In this document: positions 11,417 through 56,893 of the stretch, piece by piece
How the letters are laid out: each line of letters opens with the position of its first letter
Position numbering within the stretch: position 1 is the first letter of the stretch
DNA from: Eledone cirrhosa
Lineage: Eukaryota
Direction of reading: 5' to 3'
Length of the DNA stretch: 64,000 nucleotides
NCBI GenBank assembly: GCA_964016885.1
Contig: OZ024746.1
Coordinates: 64,232,001 to 64,296,000 of the forward strand
Program-made: the position numbers and the translations under genes
Notes under the pieces: generated by a model
What the model saw: only the letters and a program-made list of their open reading frames with translations
Database searches by the model: none
What the model was told of the DNA's origin: nothing

Positions 11417-12703
11417 CAGGGTGTGGACGATATTTGTTCACAAGATTACTGTCTAGGAAAAATTAACACAGTAGTTTTATTTTTTAAGATATATTTATCA
11501 AACTTGGGTCAGTTTGTCTTCATGACTTGTTCCTTCGATCTCACTCGATAAACCCGCCATTGGCTTTGATGATGGCCTCAAGGCGGCCTCAGAACCGGCT
11601 ACAGGCCTTCATCACTGTCCCCCGACTTAGGCCCCTAAAGGCACTTGTGATCCTGGCCTTCAGATCGTCTTTCGTATTGCAGCTAGATCTGCTGGTGTCT
11701 CGTTCCACTGCGCCTCACACAAAGAAGTCGAGGGGGTAGCAGTCAGGCGAGCTGGGAGGCCAGATGTCAGGTGAAGTGTGGTCGACAAAGTTCTCTGACA
11801 GCCAGGCTTGGGTCTTTCGGTTGGTATGGCAGGGTGCTGAGTCTTGCTGCCACACGTACGGCCTACCTGCAGCTACCTGGTCGATCCAGGGCTTTACTCC
11901 CTCACTCAGAATGCGGATGTAGCCATTGGTGTTCAGGTTGAGGCCCTCAGGGAAGAAGTGAGGTAGCATGACGTCACCTTGACTGCTGACGACACCTAAG
12001 ACCAATGTTGTCGTTGGAAACTTTGTCTGCATGACTCTGGGTACGTCTATGGATGAGACAGTGAGCCACCTTCTGGTCTTGGCAGAAGTTTTTCTTGTCG
12101 GAGAAAAACCACAGCATGTCTGGCTCCAGTGGGTGTTTCAACTTGTTGATCAGCTGCTTTGCGTGCTTCAGTCGCTTTTCTTGCATCACCTTTGACAGAA
12201 ATTGTCCTTTCCTCATCTTGTATGAAACGTAGCGAATGTCTTCATGTACCACCAGCCTAATGAGCTTTTCATCCACGCCTTTCTCCCTTGCAATGGCACG
12301 CATCGACTTGCTAGGTTCATTGTTGATGATATCCTGAACTTCAGCGACGAACTTGGGCGTTCTGAAGGCGTCAGATCGTCGATCATGTATTTCCCTCTCT
12401 GATGTTGCTTCGTAGTCGAATTCTGAATCTTCCAATTCCTTTCTGACCTTTTCCACCATTCTCCTGCTGAGGCTGAGAAAGTCTGAAATTTCCTTATTTG
12501 TCCTCCCGGCATGGATTCCAAGAAGAACTCCGTGTCTCTTCCACAAATTTGGAGGTTCAAAATTATTCATAATCAATTATTCTGAAAATAAATAATGGAA
12601 ATATAGTCACTGTTTTTATGAAGACAAGAGTGACAACGGAAGAAAAAAAAAATTGCATAAAATTAGCAGTTGAAAATTGCAAACAAATATCGTCCACACC
12701 CTG
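11417..12703 (-). mobile_element. Full-length Tc1/mariner DNA transposon, DD37D (maT) family
   Basis: 22-bp perfect TIR CAGGGTGTGGACGATATTTGTT at both ends, TA TSD (11415-16, 12704-05), 1287 bp. Confidence 0.95.
11541..12570 (-). pseudogene. Inactivated DD37D transposase
   Basis: HTH-like N-terminus, FSDKKNF, QQDSAPCH and WPPSSPDCYPLD, with 37 residues between the 2nd and 3rd D. Frameshift near 12050, premature TGA stops, C-terminus ..IIKANGGFIE*. Confidence 0.92.
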
Positions 12704-42987: not shown

Positions 42988-43910
42988 ATCATCATCATCA
43001 CCGTTTAACATCCATTTTTCCACGCTAGCATGGGCTAGACGAGTTGTCCTGTTATGCCAGGTCAGGTGACCATGTCTTTCTCATACAGAACTGATTCTGG
43101 CTTGGTTTCTACAGCTGGATGCCCTTCCTAACACCAATCTTATTTACAGTCAGTACTGGGTGCTTTTTGTTATGACACCTTTACTGTGTGGGCAGAGTGC
43201 TTTTTGCCATGTTGCCATCACGACCACTTTACAGTGTGGGCTAGAGACATCACTAGATGCATGCTTCAGCCTGTTCTCATGGGAGATGTATCAAAGGGTG
43301 GGTCGGTGCATATTACATATAGGCTTCAGCTTCAGCCTGTACCTGTGGGAAGACTGGTTTTCTGTATTACTGTATAATGCCAGTGATTTCAGTCCTGTGT
43401 CATCATCTTTGAGAGGTGCAATTGGGCAAGGTCAGCTTTTATCACTTCATCCCAGATCTTCCTGGGTCTCCCCACTCCAAGGCTTCCATCGACTTTGAGC
43501 ACTCTGCGCCTTTTTATACAGCTGTCATCCTTCATACGCATCACATGTCCATACCAATGCATCTCCTCTCTTGCACACTGCATCTGATTCCTCTTATGCC
43601 CAGTTTCTCTCTCAGTTCATTTATGCTTTGCTTTCGTGTATTACTATTACTATTACGGGGTCGATAAAATAAAGTACCAGTAATGCACTGGGTAATTGCT
43701 GGCCTTGTGCCTAAAGTAGAAACAACTATTACTATTACACATCCATCGGAGCATGCAAGCTTCATTTCTTTCTAATATATGCAAGTCTTCTGCAGAGAGC
43801 GCCCAGGTATCACTACCATGTAACATTCCCGTTTGTATGGACGCATCATACAGTCTACCTTTCATTTTAAGGGAAAAATCTTTTGTAGCTAGCAGTGGTA
43901 GTAGATACTG
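42988..43910 (-). mobile_element. RTE LINE 3' fragment (duplicated at ~47884-48727 on +)
   Basis: LPLLATKDFSLKMKGRLYDA..WYGHVMRMKDD..GRPRKIWDEVIK, plus 3' UTR and (gat)n. Confidence 0.9.
43657..43724 (+). mobile_element. 5'-truncated SINE present only in the left arm
   Basis: 14-bp TSD actattactattac (43643-43656 / 43725-43738); empty site in the right arm at ~48057-48075. Confidence 0.9.
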
Positions 43911-46582: not shown

Positions 46583-48736
46583 TTGACTTAAGCAACCTCA
46601 CAGATTTGTGATGACATTCTTATGGATTTTCAGTTGTCTAAGAAGTTTTATTAAATGCATTTATTATGTAAATAAAAAGGACACAAGAAATAAAAATACA
46701 GAATAATAATAAATATCTCTTTCTTAGCTGCTTGAATGCATAGTAAGCAATTTTTATTTTTGAGCGGGGGAGGGGTACTTTTAAAATTATATTAAAAAAA
46801 TCATTTTGAAAATGCATACAAAAATAGTTTAAATCTTACATCACAAGTATTTGATAATAAATACATGTTTATTATGTGGTAATTGCACTGAAATAAAATA
46901 AACAAGTCTAATATTTGAAAGTTAAAAGAGCATTTTCAAATAAAAGAAACACATTCTTACATTAAACCGAATTCCAAAAGCTAAAAGCTAATTTAAATTC
47001 TTTAACATGAGCATTTGATCTGTATATATAGTTTATTCAATGGATTTGTGTTAGAATTTTCTAATGTTGTTTTGTTTCATTACTTCCGTTTTGCACTGAT
47101 CATTGCATTTTTAAGTATATGTGCTTGCATAATTTGTCGCACAGAAATACCTGGATTATGTTAAAAAAAAAGAATTGTATGTATGACTGAACACTAAGTC
47201 CTTGTATCTATGCATGACTGAACAGATAAGCCCAGATACTTTTATAATTGTTTCATTTCCATTATTATCTATGTTGGAATGAATTACTGAATATCAATTT
47301 TCAAGATTAACCAACTGTTGATAATGTCTTGATATGAAAAACTATGGGTTAATTCAATATTGTTATCAAGTGCAATCTCATTGATATCTTTATGTTCGAT
47401 AGATTTTATATGGACGTTGCTTTGCTTGACATTAAAACTGTCAAAATGCCCTTCATCACAAGAAATTAAACCGTCCAACATTAAACCAAGCCAAAATTTT
47501 AGTCATTCTTTCAAATGAGTGGCAGATTTAACAGATTTACAAATAATGCATCTTTAATTTTAAACTGGAATTGGAAATTAAGAATAGAAACTTTGTTGTT
47601 GATTAATTGTTTTATAATGTTTTTTTCTTTAATGACATTTGAAATTCTGGAAACATCCATGGGTTATTGGTTGTATGAGAGAAGTGATCGATTAACTTCT
47701 GTTCAATGGGATGATCCCTAGAGTTATCATAGTAAAAGGCATATTTAGCATCATAAATTGAGTCAAAGTGTTGGCAGAAATCATTGAGTAAAAAATTTTT
47801 TTGAAAAGTTCATCTAGCCATGCATTCTGTTGAGCTTTAGAGATGACAGGAAAATGTATTATTCTCTCCAAGGATCTTGGATAATCAGTATCTACTACCA
47901 CTGCTAGCTACAAAAGATTTTTCCCTTAAAATGAAAGGTAGACTGTATGATGCGTCCATACAAACGGAATGTTACATGGTAGTGAGACCTGGGTGCTCTC
48001 TGCAGAAGACTTGCATATATTGGAAAAAAAATGAAGCTTGCATGCTCCGATGGATGTGTAATAGTAATAGTAATACATGAAAGCAAAGCATAAATGAACT
48101 GAGAGAGAAACTGGGCATAAGAGGAATCAGATGCAGTGTGCAAGAGAGGAGATGCATTGGTATGGACATGTGATGCGTATGAAGGATGACACCTGTATAA
48201 AAAGGCGCAGAGTGCTCAAAGTCGATGGAAGCCTTGGAGTGGGGAGACCCAGTAAGATCTGGGATGAAGTAATAAAAGCTGACCTTGCCCAATTGCACCT
48301 CTCAAAGATGATGACACAGGACTGAAATCACTGGCATTATACAGTAATACAGAAAACCAGTCTTCCCACAGGTACAGGCTGAAGCTGAAGCCTATATGTA
48401 ATATGCACCGACCCACCCTTTGATACATCTCCCATGAGAACAGGCTGAAGCATGCATCTAGTGATGTCTCTAGCCCACACTGTAAAGTGGTTGTGATGGC
48501 AACATGGCAAAAAGCACTCTGCCCACACAGTAAAGGTGTCATAACAAAAAGCACCCAGTACTGACTGTAAATAAGATTGGTGTTAGGAAGGGCATCCAGC
48601 TGTAGAAACCAAGCCAGAATCAGTTCTGTATGAGAAAGACATGGTCACCTGACCTGGCATAACAGGACAACTCGTCTAGCCCATGCTAGCGTGGAAAAAT
48701 GGATGTTAAACGGTGATGATGATGATATACATATAA

Positions 48737-50615: not shown

Positions 50616-51155
50616 CATACATACATTAGATCTACCACCAAAGTTGGTCACAGTGGGATTTCAATTCAGAATGCAAAGAAACAGAACAAATACCATAAGG
50701 TACCTTGTTGAATTCTTTAACAATTCTAACAATCTGCTGATTTTCATTTGTACTTTATTTTATCACTCCTGAACAGAAGAAAGGCAAAGTTGACCTTTGT
50801 AGGATTTGAACTCAGAGTGCAAAGAGCCAGAATAAACACTGCAAGGCATTTTTTTTATTTTCAATGGCTCTAACAATTCTGCCAATTTGCTGCTTTGGAG
50901 TTCTATTTAGAGATAGTTACTCATATATAATGTAGCAATATAATCTGGTTTGTGTTGGTGAAAGAAACTGGAACAAGGACAGGGCATTTCTCAATGACAT
51001 GACACTATGACTTAGTTTTGACCTTATGACCATTTGGTAAATTGTCCAATATATATATATGTATGTTCATTAAAAACAACTTATATATATATTTATACGT
51101 CTGTATATATATATATATGTATACACACACACACACAGACACATATATATATATA

Positions 51156-51193
<38 letters not shown>

Positions 51194-51194
<1 letters not shown>

Positions 51195-54075
51195 CCGACA
51201 GTGACTATATAATTATTGCTGGCGACCTAAATGGCCACGTTGGACAACATTGTGACGGCTATGACGGAATCCACGGAGGCTATGGGTTTGGTACTAGAAA
51301 TGAGGAAGGCTCCAGAATCCTGGAATTCTGTGATGCAAATAACCTAACTATCTGTAACACTAACTTCAAAAAACGAGACAATCACTTGATTACCTACAGA
51401 TCAGGAGAACATACCAGCCAGGTAGATTATATCCTTACCAGAAGACATGACAGAGTGTCTGTTGTAAACACTAAATCCCTCCCCCATGAAGAATGCACCT
51501 CCCAACATAGACTGATAATTAGCGACTTCATAGTCAGGACGAGACATACTAGACAGCTGAAGAGGACTATCCTCAGGGGAGAAAAGTATGGAAGCTAAAG
51601 GACCCCACAGTCAGAAATAAATTTAAAAGCATATTACTTGATGCTTTCGACAGTAAGGAAGAGCAATTAGAGTCGTACAATATAGAGGAACAGTGGGAAT
51701 TCCTGAAAGCAAACCTGCTGATGGCGGCAGACGAAGTCTGTGGCTGGAGCAGGCCTGTAGGCAGGAGGAGAGTAACATGGTGGTGGAATAGTAAGGTGGA
51801 GGAGTCAATTAAGGCCAAAAAGCAAGCTTCGAAAGTATGGCGGGATGGGGGAAGTAGAGAAGACTATCAAGTGGCCAGGAGGGAAGCTAGGACACAAGTG
51901 TACTTCGCAAGAAGGGAAGCAGAGGAAAGAAAGTTCAAGCATGTTCTACAACGCGAGGACCAAAAACGTGAGGTGTTCAGGATTGCTAGGCAATGTGTCA
52001 AGGAAAACCGTGATATTGTCGGGGAGAAGTGTGTACTTAATGATAATGGCGTACTTGCCATCACTGACGCTGATAAGAAGGTAGCTTGGAAGTGTCACTA
52101 CGAAAGGCTACTAAATGAGGAGAATAAATGGGAGAAAGACAGTCTCCCCCACATCGACCCAATAGAGGGACCAGCAGTGTTAGTCGAAGGTAGTATAATA
52201 AGTAAGGCAATCAAAGATATGAAGACGGGTAAAGCGGCTGGGCCTTCGGAAATAGTTGCTGAGATGCTGAAAGCCTCTGGCACGTTGGGACACACTATGG
52301 TCACCCGGATAGTAAACCAAGTCATACAGAATGGGGTTGTTCCAAAGGACTGGCGTAACAGCATCATCATTAACTGCTACAAGAGTAAAGGAGACGCCCT
52401 AGATAGGAGTAACTATAGAGGCATTAAATTAATCGACCAGGTCATGAAGGTCACGGAAAAAGTAATAGCGCAACTAATCAGAGAGAGAATTGATCTAGAT
52501 GAAATGCAATTCGGGTTTGTGTCAGGCAAAAGTACCACAGACGCTCTTTTCATTGTACGACAACTACAGGAGAAGTACCTAGCTAAAAGTAAACCCCTAT
52601 ACTTAGCTTTTGTCGACTTGGCGAAAGCCTTCGACAGAGTCCCCATTCCATTATCTGGTGGGCTCTTAGAAAACTAGGTCTTGATGAATGGCTTATGAGA
52701 GCTATACAAGCCATGTATAAAGAAACAGTCAGCAAGGTTAGAATTAACAACGAATATAGTGAAGAGTTTAGCTTAAAAGTTGGTGTTCATCAAGGCTCTG
52801 TTCTTAGCCCCCTACTATTTATTATTGCCCTTCAGGCTATAACAGTGGAGTTCAAGACCGGCTGCTCATGGGAACTCCTATACGCAGATGATCTAATGCT
52901 CATAGCTGAATCAATGGCCGAGCTAGAGAAGAAATTCCAAACATGGAAGCACGGCCTAGAATCAAAAGACCTTAAAATTAACCTGGCTAAGACTAAAGTT
53001 CTAGTTTGTAGGAAAGAAAATAAGGCGCCGGTCCCTTCCGGGAAATGGCCATGCTTAGTGTGTAGGAAAGGCGTAGGTAGAAACTCTATTTTATGTCCCA
53101 AATGCAAAGTATGGGTGCATAAAAGATGTAGTGGGATCACAGGTAGCTAACTAAGAACATAGATTTTACATGTGGCCGGTGCTCTGGTGCAATAAGTAGC
53201 AGCAAGTGCCCACAAAATACTAGCTCTTTCAATTGCGCAGAGGGTTCTATAGAAATAGTGGACAGCTTCCGTTACCTGGGTGACAAAATCAGCAGTGGGG
53301 GAGGGTGCTCTGAAAGTACAGTAGCTAGAGTCAGAACTGGATGGAAAAAGTTCAGAGAGCTTATACCACTATTAGCCGCTAAAGGGTTCTCCCTAAAAAT
53401 GAAAGGCAGGCTGTATGATGCCTGCATACGAACAGCGATGTTACATGGCAGTGAGACATGGGCATTGTGTGCAGAGGATATACGCAGACTAGAGAGGAAC
53501 GAAGCTTGTATGCTCCGCTGGATGTTTAATAGTAATATACGTGAACGGCAAAGCATAAACGAACTAAGGGAAAAATTAGAAATAAGAGGGATCAGATGTT
53601 GTTTACTCGAGAGAAGGCTACGTTGGTATGGTCACGTGATGCGCATGAAAGACGACAGCTGTATAAAAAAGTGCAGGGCAATAAAGATAGATGGTAGCCA
53701 CGGAGTAGGCAGACCCAGAAAAACCTGGGACGACCTGATAAATTCCGACCTCACACACTTACACCTCTCCAAGACAATGTAAAGTTATGTTGGTGCCACA
53801 ACATCCAGGCCGAAACAAATGAGATCGTGTAGGTGTCACGACAAAAAAAACACAGTCCACGCTGTAATGTGGCCGTGTAGGCAACACGGTAAAAACCTCC
53901 CAGCCCCACACTGTAAATGTGGTTGGTGTTAGGAAGGGCATCCAGTCGTAGAAAACCTGCCAGACAGTCCTATGCGAGCAAGACAACCACTCTTGCCTCA
54001 AGTGGGAAAACTCCCGTCCAAACCCATGCAAGCGTGGAACATGGACGTTAAACGATGATGATGATGATGATGATG
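51194..54075 (+). mobile_element. 5'-truncated RTE-clade LINE (APE endonuclease C-terminus, RT, Cys-rich insert, 3' UTR, (GAT)n tail)
   Basis: IIAGDLNGHVG..RNEEGSRILEFC..SQVDYIL; NYRGIKL..QFGF..AFVDLAKAFDRVP; HQGSVLSPLLF..YADD; WYGHVMRM..GRPRKTW. About 3 frameshifts (~51575, ~52650, ~53150). Confidence 0.96.
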
Positions 54076-55352: not shown

Positions 55353-56078
55353 CTAAGGCGGGTAAAATTCCCGAGATCCATGGACGAGTTCTCTCCAGCG
55401 GTCTCTGTCCCTCATTATCGCTGCCATATCCTGCATCTCCAACAGACCAGTGTCTGTCCTTAGGGCATCAACATATGTTAACCTTGGTCTTCCTCTTCTA
55501 GTGTGTCCATGTAGGGGCTCCCAAAGGAGCACTGAGTGCAATGTCAACTCTGGATGTCGGTGAGCATGTCCAGCCAACCTCAGTCTCCTCTGTGTCACTT
55601 TTGATCTGACTTTTGGGATGCTCCCATACAGCTCTGAGTTTTTCATCCTCAGTGTATACTGATTAATGTTCAGAGCCATCCTCAGCATTCTCGTGTAGCA
55701 CCCATCCACCATCTGAGTGAGTCTCTTGGTCAGTGTCCAAGTCTCAGACCCATACAGCAGCACAGACTCCACTACAGCAATGAAGAGGCGGATTTTCAGG
55801 TCTCTACGAAGGTCCGACTTCCACACCGATCTCAAGCTGTGACACGCCGCCCAGGCCTTGCTCTTCCTCTCAACTACATCATCTTCCGTATTCCCAATCT
55901 TTGCTCCCAAATACAGGAAGTCCTCAACCAATTCCAGCGGCTTCCCGCCTACATTAGTGATCCCTTCTGGCTTCTCAACATTCTCTACCAGATATTTTGT
56001 TTTAGTCTCATTCATTCTCAGCGCCACACTCATCGACACAGTCTCAACCTCCCGCATCAAATCCTCTGCCTCCTTCAT
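55353..56078 (-). mobile_element. LINE (RTE-like) ORF C-terminal fragment, uninterrupted
   Basis: LRMNETKTKY..VEDFLYLG..KIRLFIAVVESVLLYGSETW..RRLRLAGH..GRPRLTYVD, with (TA)n on both sides. Confidence 0.9.
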
Positions 56079-56094
56079 ATATATATATACATAT

Positions 56095-56152
<58 letters not shown>

Positions 56153-56268
56153 TAATAAAAGGAATTCCAATTTTGTCTGATTTACTCATTTTATTTACAA
56201 TCCTTTAAAATTTATAATGGTATTAGAATGAAATAGTATGGTAGAATATTAAATGTTAAGTGTTAATT

Positions 56269-56305
56269 GAACAAGTACTGTCATGCTTTCGCAATCTTCA
56301 GGTTC
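56269..56305 (-). ncRNA. Minimal hammerhead motif with one core substitution
   Basis: Minus strand: gaac-CTGAAGA-ttgc(gaaa)gcat-GACA-gtac-TT-gttc; stem III AGTACT palindrome. Confidence 0.6.
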
Positions 56306-56515
56306 ATATTCTGTGGTGACAGTCAAGTTTGCAATTTTCAACTTATAATAAATGGCTCAACTTATAATAAAAAAGAAATAGCTTTATACAATATGTATAA
56401 ATATTTCGTATCTCCAAGGAAATACGGTTTTAGGAAGCCGTAGCTATGCAAACGCCAGGGGGGGGGGGGTCTAACGCCCTCTGGTGATAAGTTGAGCCAA
56501 CTTATGCAGCTTCAT

Positions 56516-56592
56516 ATGCAAATGAGATTAATCACCTCATTTACACAGACGAGAAAAGTATATATTCTCAGCTGTCTTCTAGTCCAGCAGTC
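56516..56592 (+). promoter_or_regulatory. Candidate internal promoter (octamer ATGCAAAT, TATA, initiator-like CAGTC)
   Basis: ATGCAAAT at 56516-56523, TATATA at 56559, and the A of cAgtc at 56589, 30 nt after the TATA start. Confidence 0.4.
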
Positions 56593-56605
56593 GCAAGCAG
56601 TGGGA

Positions 56606-56658
56606 GGGACGGTCCTGACGAAGGCCAGTTAAGCCTGAAATGCATAGAAAGTTGTCCC
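56606..56658 (+). ncRNA. Minimal type-I hammerhead ribozyme
   Basis: gggacggtc-CTGACGA-aggc(cagttaa)gcct-GAAA-tgca-TA-ga(aag)ttgtccc. Core intact, stem III ATGCAT palindrome, predicted cleavage after 56646. Confidence 0.85.
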
Positions 56659-56853
56659 CCTTGTTTCTGCTGGACATCACCAGAGGGCGTTAGCCCCCCC
56701 CCCCCCCCCCCCCGTGTTTGCATAGCTACGGCTTCCTAAAACCGTATTTCCTTGGAGATACGAAATATTTATACATATTTATATACATATATATATATAT
56801 ACATATATAAATATATACACATATAAATATATACACATATATATTTATATACA

Positions 56854-56893
<40 letters not shown>

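What the first reader, a model, noticed from the sequence alone, without database searches (positions are those of the whole stretch)
56390..56779. 390-bp non-coding element: inverted repeats enclosing promoter-like motifs and an intact hammerhead ribozyme
Seen: ~100-bp inverted arms. The interior is a chain of hairpins (aagttg/caactt, aaatgag/ctcattt, gagaa/ttctc, gtccagcag/ctgctggac), with an octamer ATGCAAAT, a TCACC motif, a TATA box and an intact minimal HHR. A 13-mer from the left flank (tggctcaacttat, 56353-56365) reappears inverted at the inner junction (56487-56499). Established: minimal HHRs occur in Penelope-like elements and non-LTR retrozymes, and newt satellite 2 couples snRNA-type promoter elements to an HHR. 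Inference: a young, self-transcribed, self-cleaving non-autonomous retroelement mobilised by a PLE reverse transcriptase, possibly an undescribed cephalopod retrozyme family.
Basis: partly seen in the sequence, partly recalled or inferred. Interest (0 to 1): 0.85.

Follow-up and report, generated by a model that had tools for sequence, protein, structure and literature searches.

The report
Penelope-inserted retrozyme with U6-type promoter
This is one damaged copy of a small non-coding jumping repeat found in well over a thousand places in this animal genome; it carries a predicted self-cutting RNA and the same promoter box as the host's own U6 and MRP RNA genes, and it was most likely pasted in by a Penelope-type retrotransposon enzyme, which makes testable how such repeats are switched on and copied.

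Summary
All motifs are present, but this is not a 390-bp unit with terminal inverted repeats. It is a two-armed insertion of a ~325-bp circularly permuted non-LTR retrozyme monomer (468 exact hits to the ribozyme core, 1,671 to the promoter 20-mer, controls 0), joined on the left to the 3' end of a Neptune-type Penelope-like element (PLE). Arms vary between copies; in 37 of 41 classifiable two-armed insertions one outer end lies at a 'short' and one at a 'long' site ~45 nt apart, the PLE tail footprint. The hammerhead is canonical type I with weak helix III, not a PLE minimal one; four pairs change on both sides between two subfamilies. This copy has lost 2 of 5 stem I pairs, so it is likely crippled. 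The 13-nt box ATATGCAAATGAG equals that at -77 of the host MRP gene (U6, U6atac similar), with a TATA 43 nt on (host 46-48). Expression, cleavage, circles and polymerase are untested. The scan found U6-like promoters and two-armed PLE ends before in other families of this genome; this family was not indexed. Verdict: new variant of a known kind, interest 0.5.

The parts
56077..56152 (.). (TA)n target microsatellite, left
56148..56343 (-). 3'-terminal pLTR piece of a Neptune-type PLE (196 nt, 97% to L178), from its apparent RNA start to its tail-less 'short' end; holds its own degenerate hammerhead (CTGAAGA 56301-56295; GAAA read as GACA at 56282-56279)
56338..56352 (-). 15-nt duplicate of unit positions u164-178 forming the junction; shares AGTTGA with the PLE piece
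   Evidence: (D12)
56353..56488 (-). left arm: monomer positions u30-182 with a ~17-nt deletion; no ribozyme, no promoter
56487..56783 (+). right arm: monomer u170-329 then u1-131 (reads through the cleavage site), ending at the family's 'short' site
56514..56526 (+). promoter box ATATGCAAATGAG, identical to the 13-mer at -77 of the host RNase MRP gene and like those of U6 and U6atac
56559..56566 (+). TATA-like box, 43 nt after the octamer start; predicted start site about 56589-56593 (inferred from host spacing)
56582..56675 (+). predicted long stem closing the ribozyme domain (GTCCAGCAG/CTGCTGGAC); conserved, no compensatory change
56606..56658 (+). type I hammerhead, canonical type with palindromic helix III; predicted cut after 56646; stem I damaged in this copy (56611, 56649, 56650)
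56765..56890 (.). (TA)n-rich target microsatellite, right (overlaps the AT-rich end of the arm)

Best explanation
The stretch is a two-armed, partly decayed insertion of a ~325-base non-coding hammerhead repeat (a non-LTR retrozyme) that carries the host's U6/MRP-type promoter box and was most likely written into a (TA)n tract by a Penelope-like reverse transcriptase-endonuclease. Steps: (1, shown) the monomer is circularly permuted across copies, holds one type I hammerhead and an upstream octamer+TATA. (2, inferred, ~0.6) in source loci with promoter plus two ribozymes, that promoter drives transcription ~25 nt ahead of the ribozyme. (3, inferred, ~0.6) two ribozymes pair through the palindromic AUGCAU helix III and cut out a monomer that contains the next promoter; it is probably circularised. 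(4, inferred from ends, ~0.85) a PLE enzyme cuts both strands of (TA)n and starts reverse transcription at two internal sites of the RNA (u~125 and u~172), one for each DNA end; the two cDNAs meet head to head, which gives the apparent inverted arms. (5, inferred, ~0.6) in this window the left cDNA began on a Neptune PLE RNA, ran to that RNA's 5' end and jumped to the retrozyme RNA at the shared AGTTGA. (6, predicted) this copy is dead or weak: one ribozyme only, stem I damaged.
For: Copy number: 468 exact 32-mer core hits, 1,671 exact promoter 20-mer hits, controls 0. Circular permutation: 111 of 133 arms cross the cleavage site, 9 of them twice. Ends: 115 of 131 outer ends fall in the two sites, 93 of these 115 run into a microsatellite; 37 of 41 classifiable two-armed insertions are short+long (binomial p = 5e-8; 36 of 40 without the duplicated L097). 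The Neptune PLE beside the element obeys the same rule in 13 of 13 two-armed copies in which both ends were read, tail ~40 nt; tails, 5' inverted copies and (TA)n preference are PLE hallmarks (PMC8557442 passages) and a purified PLE cuts and extends both strands from two internal start sites (PMC11167929 parts 1-2). Both arms of an insertion share subfamily alleles (42 of 48 vs 0.47 expected; 46 of 49 vs 0.66; 23 of 25 vs 0.51) and private variants (0.51% vs 0.06% of sites). Ribozyme selection: against an older subfamily (63 exact hits) 3 stem II pairs and 1 stem I pair change on both sides; core changes are only at N7 and H17. Promoter: 5 of 5 independent host U6/U6atac/MRP promoters with the box have it at -76 to -78 and TATA at -30; box+TATA in 0 of 3,000 shuffles of the unit, box alone in 5, none in the other 63.5 kb of the window; the 44 nt from the box on show no fixed difference between the subfamilies; box + ribozyme-core patterns give 6,902 and 545 hits (controls 0) in six sequence clusters. 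Same-strand direct junctions of unit and PLE pieces also in L023 and L141.
Against: Octamer-TATA spacing is 43, not the host's 46-48. The T6 run that could be a Pol III terminator lies inside the monomer and is absent from the older subfamily, whose long end sits at the same place, so the polymerase is unsettled. 5' ends show no peak at the predicted start (8 of 82, p = 0.15) or at the cleavage site (2 of 82, p = 0.65): no genomic trace of cleavage or of the start site. No A-to-G strand skew (74 vs 94, p = 0.28). The young subfamily has A-U in place of the conserved G10.1-C11.1 pair. Arms are at most 635 nt (<2 units) and no array of three or more units was seen, so a circle is not required. 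12 of 53 two-armed insertions have one end outside both sites. In the window both outer ends are of the short type if it was one event. No sequence likeness between the unit and the Neptune pLTR, so the partner PLE family is not identified. The four compensatory pairs are four events between two subfamilies, and copies were chosen by exact stem II patterns.
Confidence: 0.78

Rival explanations
1. The unit is the pLTR of an autonomous PLE not sampled here, and the copies are solo, truncated pLTRs.
For: PLE-type ends, inversions and targets; most PLE insertions are 5'-truncated; retrozymes match pLTRs in Xenopus (bioRxiv 10.64898/2026.07.22.740005, parts 1-3).
Against: Upstream of the ribozyme the copies run on into the unit itself, not into an ORF end; among 170 3' flanks only L023 had a same-strand PLE ORF piece by tblastn with seven local PLE proteins and only the window a contiguous pLTR, L141 seen by eye, each at a different unit position and with different PLE families; the Neptune pLTR has a CCAAT/TATA-like promoter and no homology; the ribozyme is canonical, not min-HHR.
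Confidence: 0.08
2. Retrozyme and PLE mobilisation are right, but the box is not a working promoter; RNA comes from read-through, and the box is an ancestral relic or a protein-binding site.
For: Spacing 3-5 nt short of the host's; T-runs inside monomers; no start-site peak; PMC7761336 states that retrozymes seem to lack promoters (passage).
Against: Exact 13-mer identity with the MRP promoter; fixed position before the ribozyme in six sequence clusters; no fixed change between subfamilies.
Confidence: 0.3
3. The PLE piece at 56148-56343 is an older, separate insertion and the retrozyme landed at its edge, rather than one template-jump event.
For: Same PLE pieces occur alone with (TA)n directly upstream (L166, L167, L174); PLEs insert beside one another; read this way the left arm starts near the long site (u182) and the short+long rule holds.
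Against: No (TA)n between the two; the junction lies exactly at the PLE's common 5' end (pLTR position 310-314) with AGTTGA shared and a 15-nt stutter; same polarity as L023 and L141.
Confidence: 0.4
4. A MITE or fold-back DNA transposon with ~100-bp terminal inverted repeats that captured a ribozyme.
For: The near-perfect inverted arms in this one copy.
Against: Arms differ in length, content and break point in every copy; 12 of 26 pattern-chosen insertions have no inversion; ends follow RNA-sense sites.
Confidence: 0.02

Closest known systems
Metazoan non-LTR retrozymes (Cervera and de la Pena 2020, PMC7229834, parts 2-4 of 6 and passages read; review PMC7761336, passages; Li, Clavereau and Pollet 2026, 10.64898/2026.07.22.740005, parts 1-3 of 5 read)
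   Same: Non-coding 170-400-nt monomer, type I hammerhead, GC below 50%, tandem/permuted copies, PLE proposed as partner.
   Different: Those papers report no promoter and no motif pointing to the partner; here there is a host U6/MRP-type box and a PLE short/long end footprint. This family is mostly under two units per arm, two-armed, without long arrays in the sample. Circles shown there, untested here.
Newt satellite 2 and axolotl HHR_Amex1 (axolotl: PMC7229834 part 3; newt promoter: cited in PMC2220036 and PMC6765202 passages; Coats et al. 1994 itself not available)
   Same: ~330-nt monomer, 1-bp helix III with palindromic tetraloop that needs dimers, internal snRNA-type promoter.
   Different: The newt promoter is reported to drive Pol II; here the box matches the host's Pol III-class genes (U6, U6atac, MRP) and not the U2 loci examined. 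No sequence comparison was made.
Penelope-like elements, Neptune and Penelope/Poseidon clades (PMC8557442 passages; PMC11167929 parts 1-2 of 4; PMC4209133 passages)
   Same: (TA)n targets, 5' inverted copy, tail at one end only, internal reverse-transcription starts, hammerhead upstream of the start sites.
   Different: No ORF; canonical rather than minimal ribozyme; no homology with the one local pLTR tested; other promoter type.
Schistosoma Sm-alpha hammerhead SINE-like repeats (PMC6765202 and PMC2220036 passages)
   Same: Pol III promoter followed by a hammerhead; needs tandem copies to pass the promoter on.
   Different: No tRNA-, 5S- or 7SL-like head was found here (Rfam); the promoter here is the upstream type-3 kind.

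Membership tests
non-LTR retrozyme | type I hammerhead in the monomer | tested here: met
   core, stems and four two-sided changes; 29 of 41 copies in L001-L030 have an intact core, 15 of 41 all helices; no Rfam hit
non-LTR retrozyme | short non-coding monomer (150-450 bp), GC below 50% | tested here: met
   329 bp in L025 with a long C run, ~325 typical; about 42% GC; no ORF of 130 aa or more over it
non-LTR retrozyme | head-to-tail copies with two consecutive ribozymes | tested here: met
   family: 9 of 133 arms cross two cleavage sites; the window's own copy has only one ribozyme and would count as a monomer
non-LTR retrozyme | no LTR, PBS or PPT | tested here: inconclusive
   no LTR architecture in 72 loci; PBS not searched
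non-LTR retrozyme | self-cleavage and circular RNA in vivo | not testable with these tools
   needs bench work or raw small-RNA reads
PLE pLTR | forms the regular terminus of an RT + GIY-YIG ORF | tested here: not met
   no shared ORF end next to the unit; only three irregular same-strand junctions; sample is about 100 loci of more than 1,000 copies
PLE pLTR | minimal hammerhead without helix III/loop contacts | tested here: not met
   canonical architecture (definition)
works like a PLE-mobilised element | two start sites 30-50 nt apart, tail at one end, 5' inversion, (TA)n target | tested here: met
   37 of 41; 93 of 115 ends at microsatellite; same rule in the neighbouring PLE
host type-3 (U6/MRP) promoter | TATG(C/G)(A/T)AAT(G/T)AG box | tested here: met
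   0 of 3,000 shuffles with box+TATA
host type-3 (U6/MRP) promoter | TATA 46-48 nt after the octamer start | tested here: inconclusive
   TATA present at 43 (45 if read one repeat later); clusters fall at 41-43 or 47-49
host type-3 (U6/MRP) promoter | conserved oligo(T) terminator | tested here: not met
   T6 at u161-166 in the young subfamily, absent in the older one
host type-3 (U6/MRP) promoter | SNAPc/Pol III-dependent transcription | not testable with these tools
   needs reporter or run-on assays
MITE / fold-back DNA transposon | constant terminal inverted repeats | tested here: not met

The most novel reading that the evidence does not exclude
This animal harbours a whole group of retrozymes (at least six sequence clusters, thousands of copies) in which each monomer carries a captured host U6/MRP-type promoter. 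Ribozyme cleavage of a dimer turns that normally external promoter into part of the mobile RNA, so a type-3 promoter becomes self-propagating; the monomer circularises and is copied by Neptune-type PLE enzymes from both ends of a (TA)n break, and this window preserves a single cDNA that switched from the PLE RNA to the retrozyme RNA.
Probability: 0.4. Interest if true: 0.72.

Novelty: new variant of a known kind. Interest (0 to 1): 0.5.

Why it matters
Two points are left open in the retrozyme papers read here: what transcribes animal retrozymes (PMC7761336 says they seem to lack promoters) and which enzyme copies them (PLEs proposed on co-occurrence and pLTR similarity). This family offers a named promoter box that can be mutated, and two fixed internal start sites that can be tested with a purified PLE enzyme. 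As a by-product it defines this animal's type-3 promoter box (useful for sgRNA/shRNA expression). The class itself, its dimer-type ribozyme and an snRNA-type promoter in one member (newt satellite 2) are known, and the copy in the window is probably inactive, which caps the score.

Tried and rejected
Rfam: no hammerhead hit. Sequencing runs: no RNA holder listed; contigs of two runs of unknown kind from one study cover the unit and show subfamily variants and say nothing on expression. T6 run as Pol III terminator defining the long end: rejected, since the older subfamily lacks it yet ends at the same place. RNA-editing scars: none (A>G 74 vs T>C 94). Peak of 5' ends at the predicted start or at the cleavage site: none. 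Lower substitution rate in the ribozyme core (0.7-1.0% vs 2.6%): not used, because over half of the loci were chosen by an exact core match; the octamer's 1.4% is only weakly lower. A distal TTACCTCCCTT-like box seen near -260 to -290 in host U6, U2 and RNase P loci resembles u7-18 of the unit, but that stretch is also ribozyme stem; not pursued. Promoter-region hairpins: no covariation. Homology of unit and Neptune pLTR: none above a 12-mer on the opposite strand. Pfam gave GIY-YIG for 2 of 5 PLE pieces, one below its cut-off; the Neptune label rests on the CX4CxxC linker read by eye against PMC8557442. One tally of PLE ribozyme cores printed nothing; the state of that core in other copies is read from five loci. 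Literature searches that found no description of this family or of U6-type promoters in retrozymes: (open-access library only; Repbase/Dfam not searchable; the supplement of PMC7229834, which lists further invertebrate retrozymes, could not be read; Coats 1994 and Lunse 2017 not held). The giant squid genome paper counts 235 Rfam hammerhead-1 loci without describing them (PMC6962438 passage).

Full report
Observation. The arms 56385-56488 and about 56676-56783 match at 99 of 109 aligned columns. The hammerhead has core CTGACGA (56615), a 4-bp stem II, GAAA-TGCA-TA and a predicted cut after 56646. Rfam does not score it.

What the element is. A search of the own genome (3.0 Gb, 1,796 contigs; taxon not determined here) gave 2,082 candidates, 40 scored. 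Exact patterns give 468 hits for a 32-mer of the ribozyme core and 1,671 for a promoter 20-mer shared with an older subfamily, controls 0. A head-to-tail copy (L025) defines a 329-bp unit (~325 with a usual C run); positions u1-u329 count from the cleavage site. The window holds (-)u30-182 with a ~17-nt deletion, then (+)u170-329 and u1-131. So the 'inverted arms' are the overlap of two opposed pieces of one monomer, and the 13-mer in the 'flank' is the left arm going on. Among 26 insertions chosen only by the core pattern (L031-L060 without four overlapping loci), 14 hold both orientations and 12 one, with different break points. Mean divergence from the family majority is 2.8% (264 pieces, 72 loci).

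PLE footprint. Of 131 outer ends, 58 lie at u115-136 (short), 57 at u155-178 (long) and 16 elsewhere; 93 of the 115 run into a microsatellite. Of 53 two-armed insertions 41 have both ends classifiable: 37 short+long, 2 long+long, 2 short+short (p = 5e-8; one of the 37 is a duplicated copy in L097) (18 of the 72 loci were picked by me, mostly for close opposed hits, so 53 of 78 overstates the two-armed share). The two arms of an insertion share subfamily alleles and private variants far more than arms of different insertions, so both came from one source RNA or locus. PMC8557442 (passages) describes for PLEs an inverted 5'-truncated copy, a 30-40-bp tail often at one end only and (TA)n bias; PMC11167929 (parts 1-2 of 4) shows a purified PLE cutting and extending both strands from two internal start sites that bound the tail, and finds ribozyme cleavage dispensable for insertion in vitro. 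111 of 133 arms read through the cleavage site, 9 twice; the longest is 635 nt. The template was therefore uncleaved multimer or circle; the data do not choose between them.

The left neighbour. 56148-56343 (-) is 97% identical to the 3' end of an element whose longer copies end a GIY-YIG ORF (L178, Pfam E 1.6e-7) with a CX4CxxC linker, i.e. a Neptune-type PLE. It has its own hammerhead, a CCAAT/TATA-like region, no homology to the unit, and the same short/tail rule in 13 of 13 two-armed copies with both ends read, among 30 loci. Its short pieces commonly begin at pLTR position 310-314, 33 nt after a TATA (the query began there, but partner arms in eight loci do so too), which I read as its RNA start. 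In the window it joins the retrozyme exactly there, through shared AGTTGA and a 15-nt stutter, without (TA)n. A template jump fits (0.6); nesting at the edge of an older piece also fits (0.4). Two more same-strand junctions join the unit upstream of other PLE ORF pieces (L023; L141).

The ribozyme. An older subfamily (63 exact hits) differs by two-sided changes at three stem II pairs and one stem I pair, and at the free positions N7 and H17 (alignment of 8 + 14 chosen copies). These are four events, and stem II is fully paired by the way copies were chosen. The fold is the canonical metazoan type I (PMC4209133 passages): helix I 5 bp + bulge + 4 bp, 7-nt loop II, 1-bp helix III closed by palindromic UGCA; two copies pair through it in a co-fold, as for amphibian ribozymes that cleave as dimers (PMC7229834 part 3). 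The young subfamily has A-U at 10.1-11.1 instead of the conserved G-C. The window copy keeps 3 of 5 stem I pairs (ribozyme fold -7.2 vs -15.6 kcal/mol in L035); 15 of 41 copies in L001-L030 are fully intact. With one ribozyme and a damaged stem it is likely inactive.

The promoter. Two single U6 genes, the U6 array, the best U6atac locus and the single MRP gene carry TATG(C/G)(A/T)AAT(G/T)AG at -76 to -78 and a TATA at -30. Two further U6-like and three U6atac-like loci lack it there (probable retrocopies), as do five array copies interrupted by an insertion, the RNase P locus (start not well defined) and all 12 U2 loci. The unit's ATATGCAAATGAG equals the MRP 13-mer; TATA follows at 43 nt instead of 46-48. 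Box plus TATA arose in 0 of 3,000 shuffles. Patterns of box + ribozyme core give 6,902 and 545 hits with controls 0 (overlapping sets), and 33 examined hits fall into six sequence clusters, with TATA spacing near 41-43 or 47-49 where present; one is a 466-469-bp family in long arrays. Against function: the spacing, the non-conserved T run, and no peak of 5' ends at the predicted start. The polymerase is open; newt satellite 2 uses an snRNA-type promoter with Pol II (cited in PMC2220036 and PMC6765202).

Mechanism, as committed: source loci with promoter and two ribozymes are transcribed from the box; dimer cleavage frees a monomer that carries the next promoter and probably circularises; a PLE enzyme primes at two internal sites from both ends of a (TA)n break and yields one- or two-armed insertions. 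Shown: anatomy, copy number, end rule, covariation, identity of the box with host promoters. Inferred: transcription, cleavage, circle, identity of the enzyme.

Relation to what is known. It meets the sequence-level features of non-LTR retrozymes and works like a PLE passenger; it fails as a pLTR and as a MITE. Seven literature searches found no account of this family or of type-3 promoters in retrozymes, but the library is open-access only and one relevant supplement was unreadable. Earlier notes of this scan report two-armed PLE ends and U6-like promoters in 310-, 420- and 467-nt families of the same genome; the sequence look-up found nothing for this family. My promoter comparison came before those look-ups; the short+long and editing tests came after and were prompted by them. 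They are not independent support. Verdict: new variant of a known kind, interest 0.5.

Noticed in passing
window 55353-56075 (-): Fragment of an RTE-type LINE (C-terminal RT region by eye from the translation); a related fragment joins an older-subfamily copy in L145/L190.
   Followed up: no
L114-L138; G000:C1:5738332-5751969 and C1:14044541-14050763: Second retrozyme family, 466-469-bp unit in long tandem arrays, with box, TATA at 41-43 and hammerhead with palindromic ACUAGU helix III.
   Followed up: partly
L219-L248: Four more, older clusters with box + TATA + hammerhead core and palindromic helix III loops; two of them have the host's exact 47-49 spacing.
   Followed up: partly
L061, L062, L063, L076, L078, L093 upstream -260 to -290: Shared distal TTACCTCCCTT-like element in host U6, U2 and RNase P promoters.
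   Followed up: no
L067, L068, L070-L073 (U6 array on C19): Part of the U6 array copies carry a ~170-bp insertion at the TATA box that displaces the upstream box.
   Followed up: no
L178:1190-1745 and L160-L188: Neptune-type PLE pLTR with CCAAT/TATA-like promoter; many solo pieces run exactly from its apparent start site to the short or tailed end.
   Followed up: partly
L027, L028, L059: Pieces of the unit lie right after a hairpin + CTAG end that looks like a Helitron 3' terminus (recalled motif).
   Followed up: no
window 43070-43498 and 48216-48644: Near-identical duplicated stretch about 5.1 kb apart (same ORF translation).
   Followed up: no
window 51074-53782 (+); 11715-12576 (-): A broken LINE endonuclease-RT ORF and a Tc1/mariner-like transposase fragment, labelled by eye from translations.
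   Followed up: no
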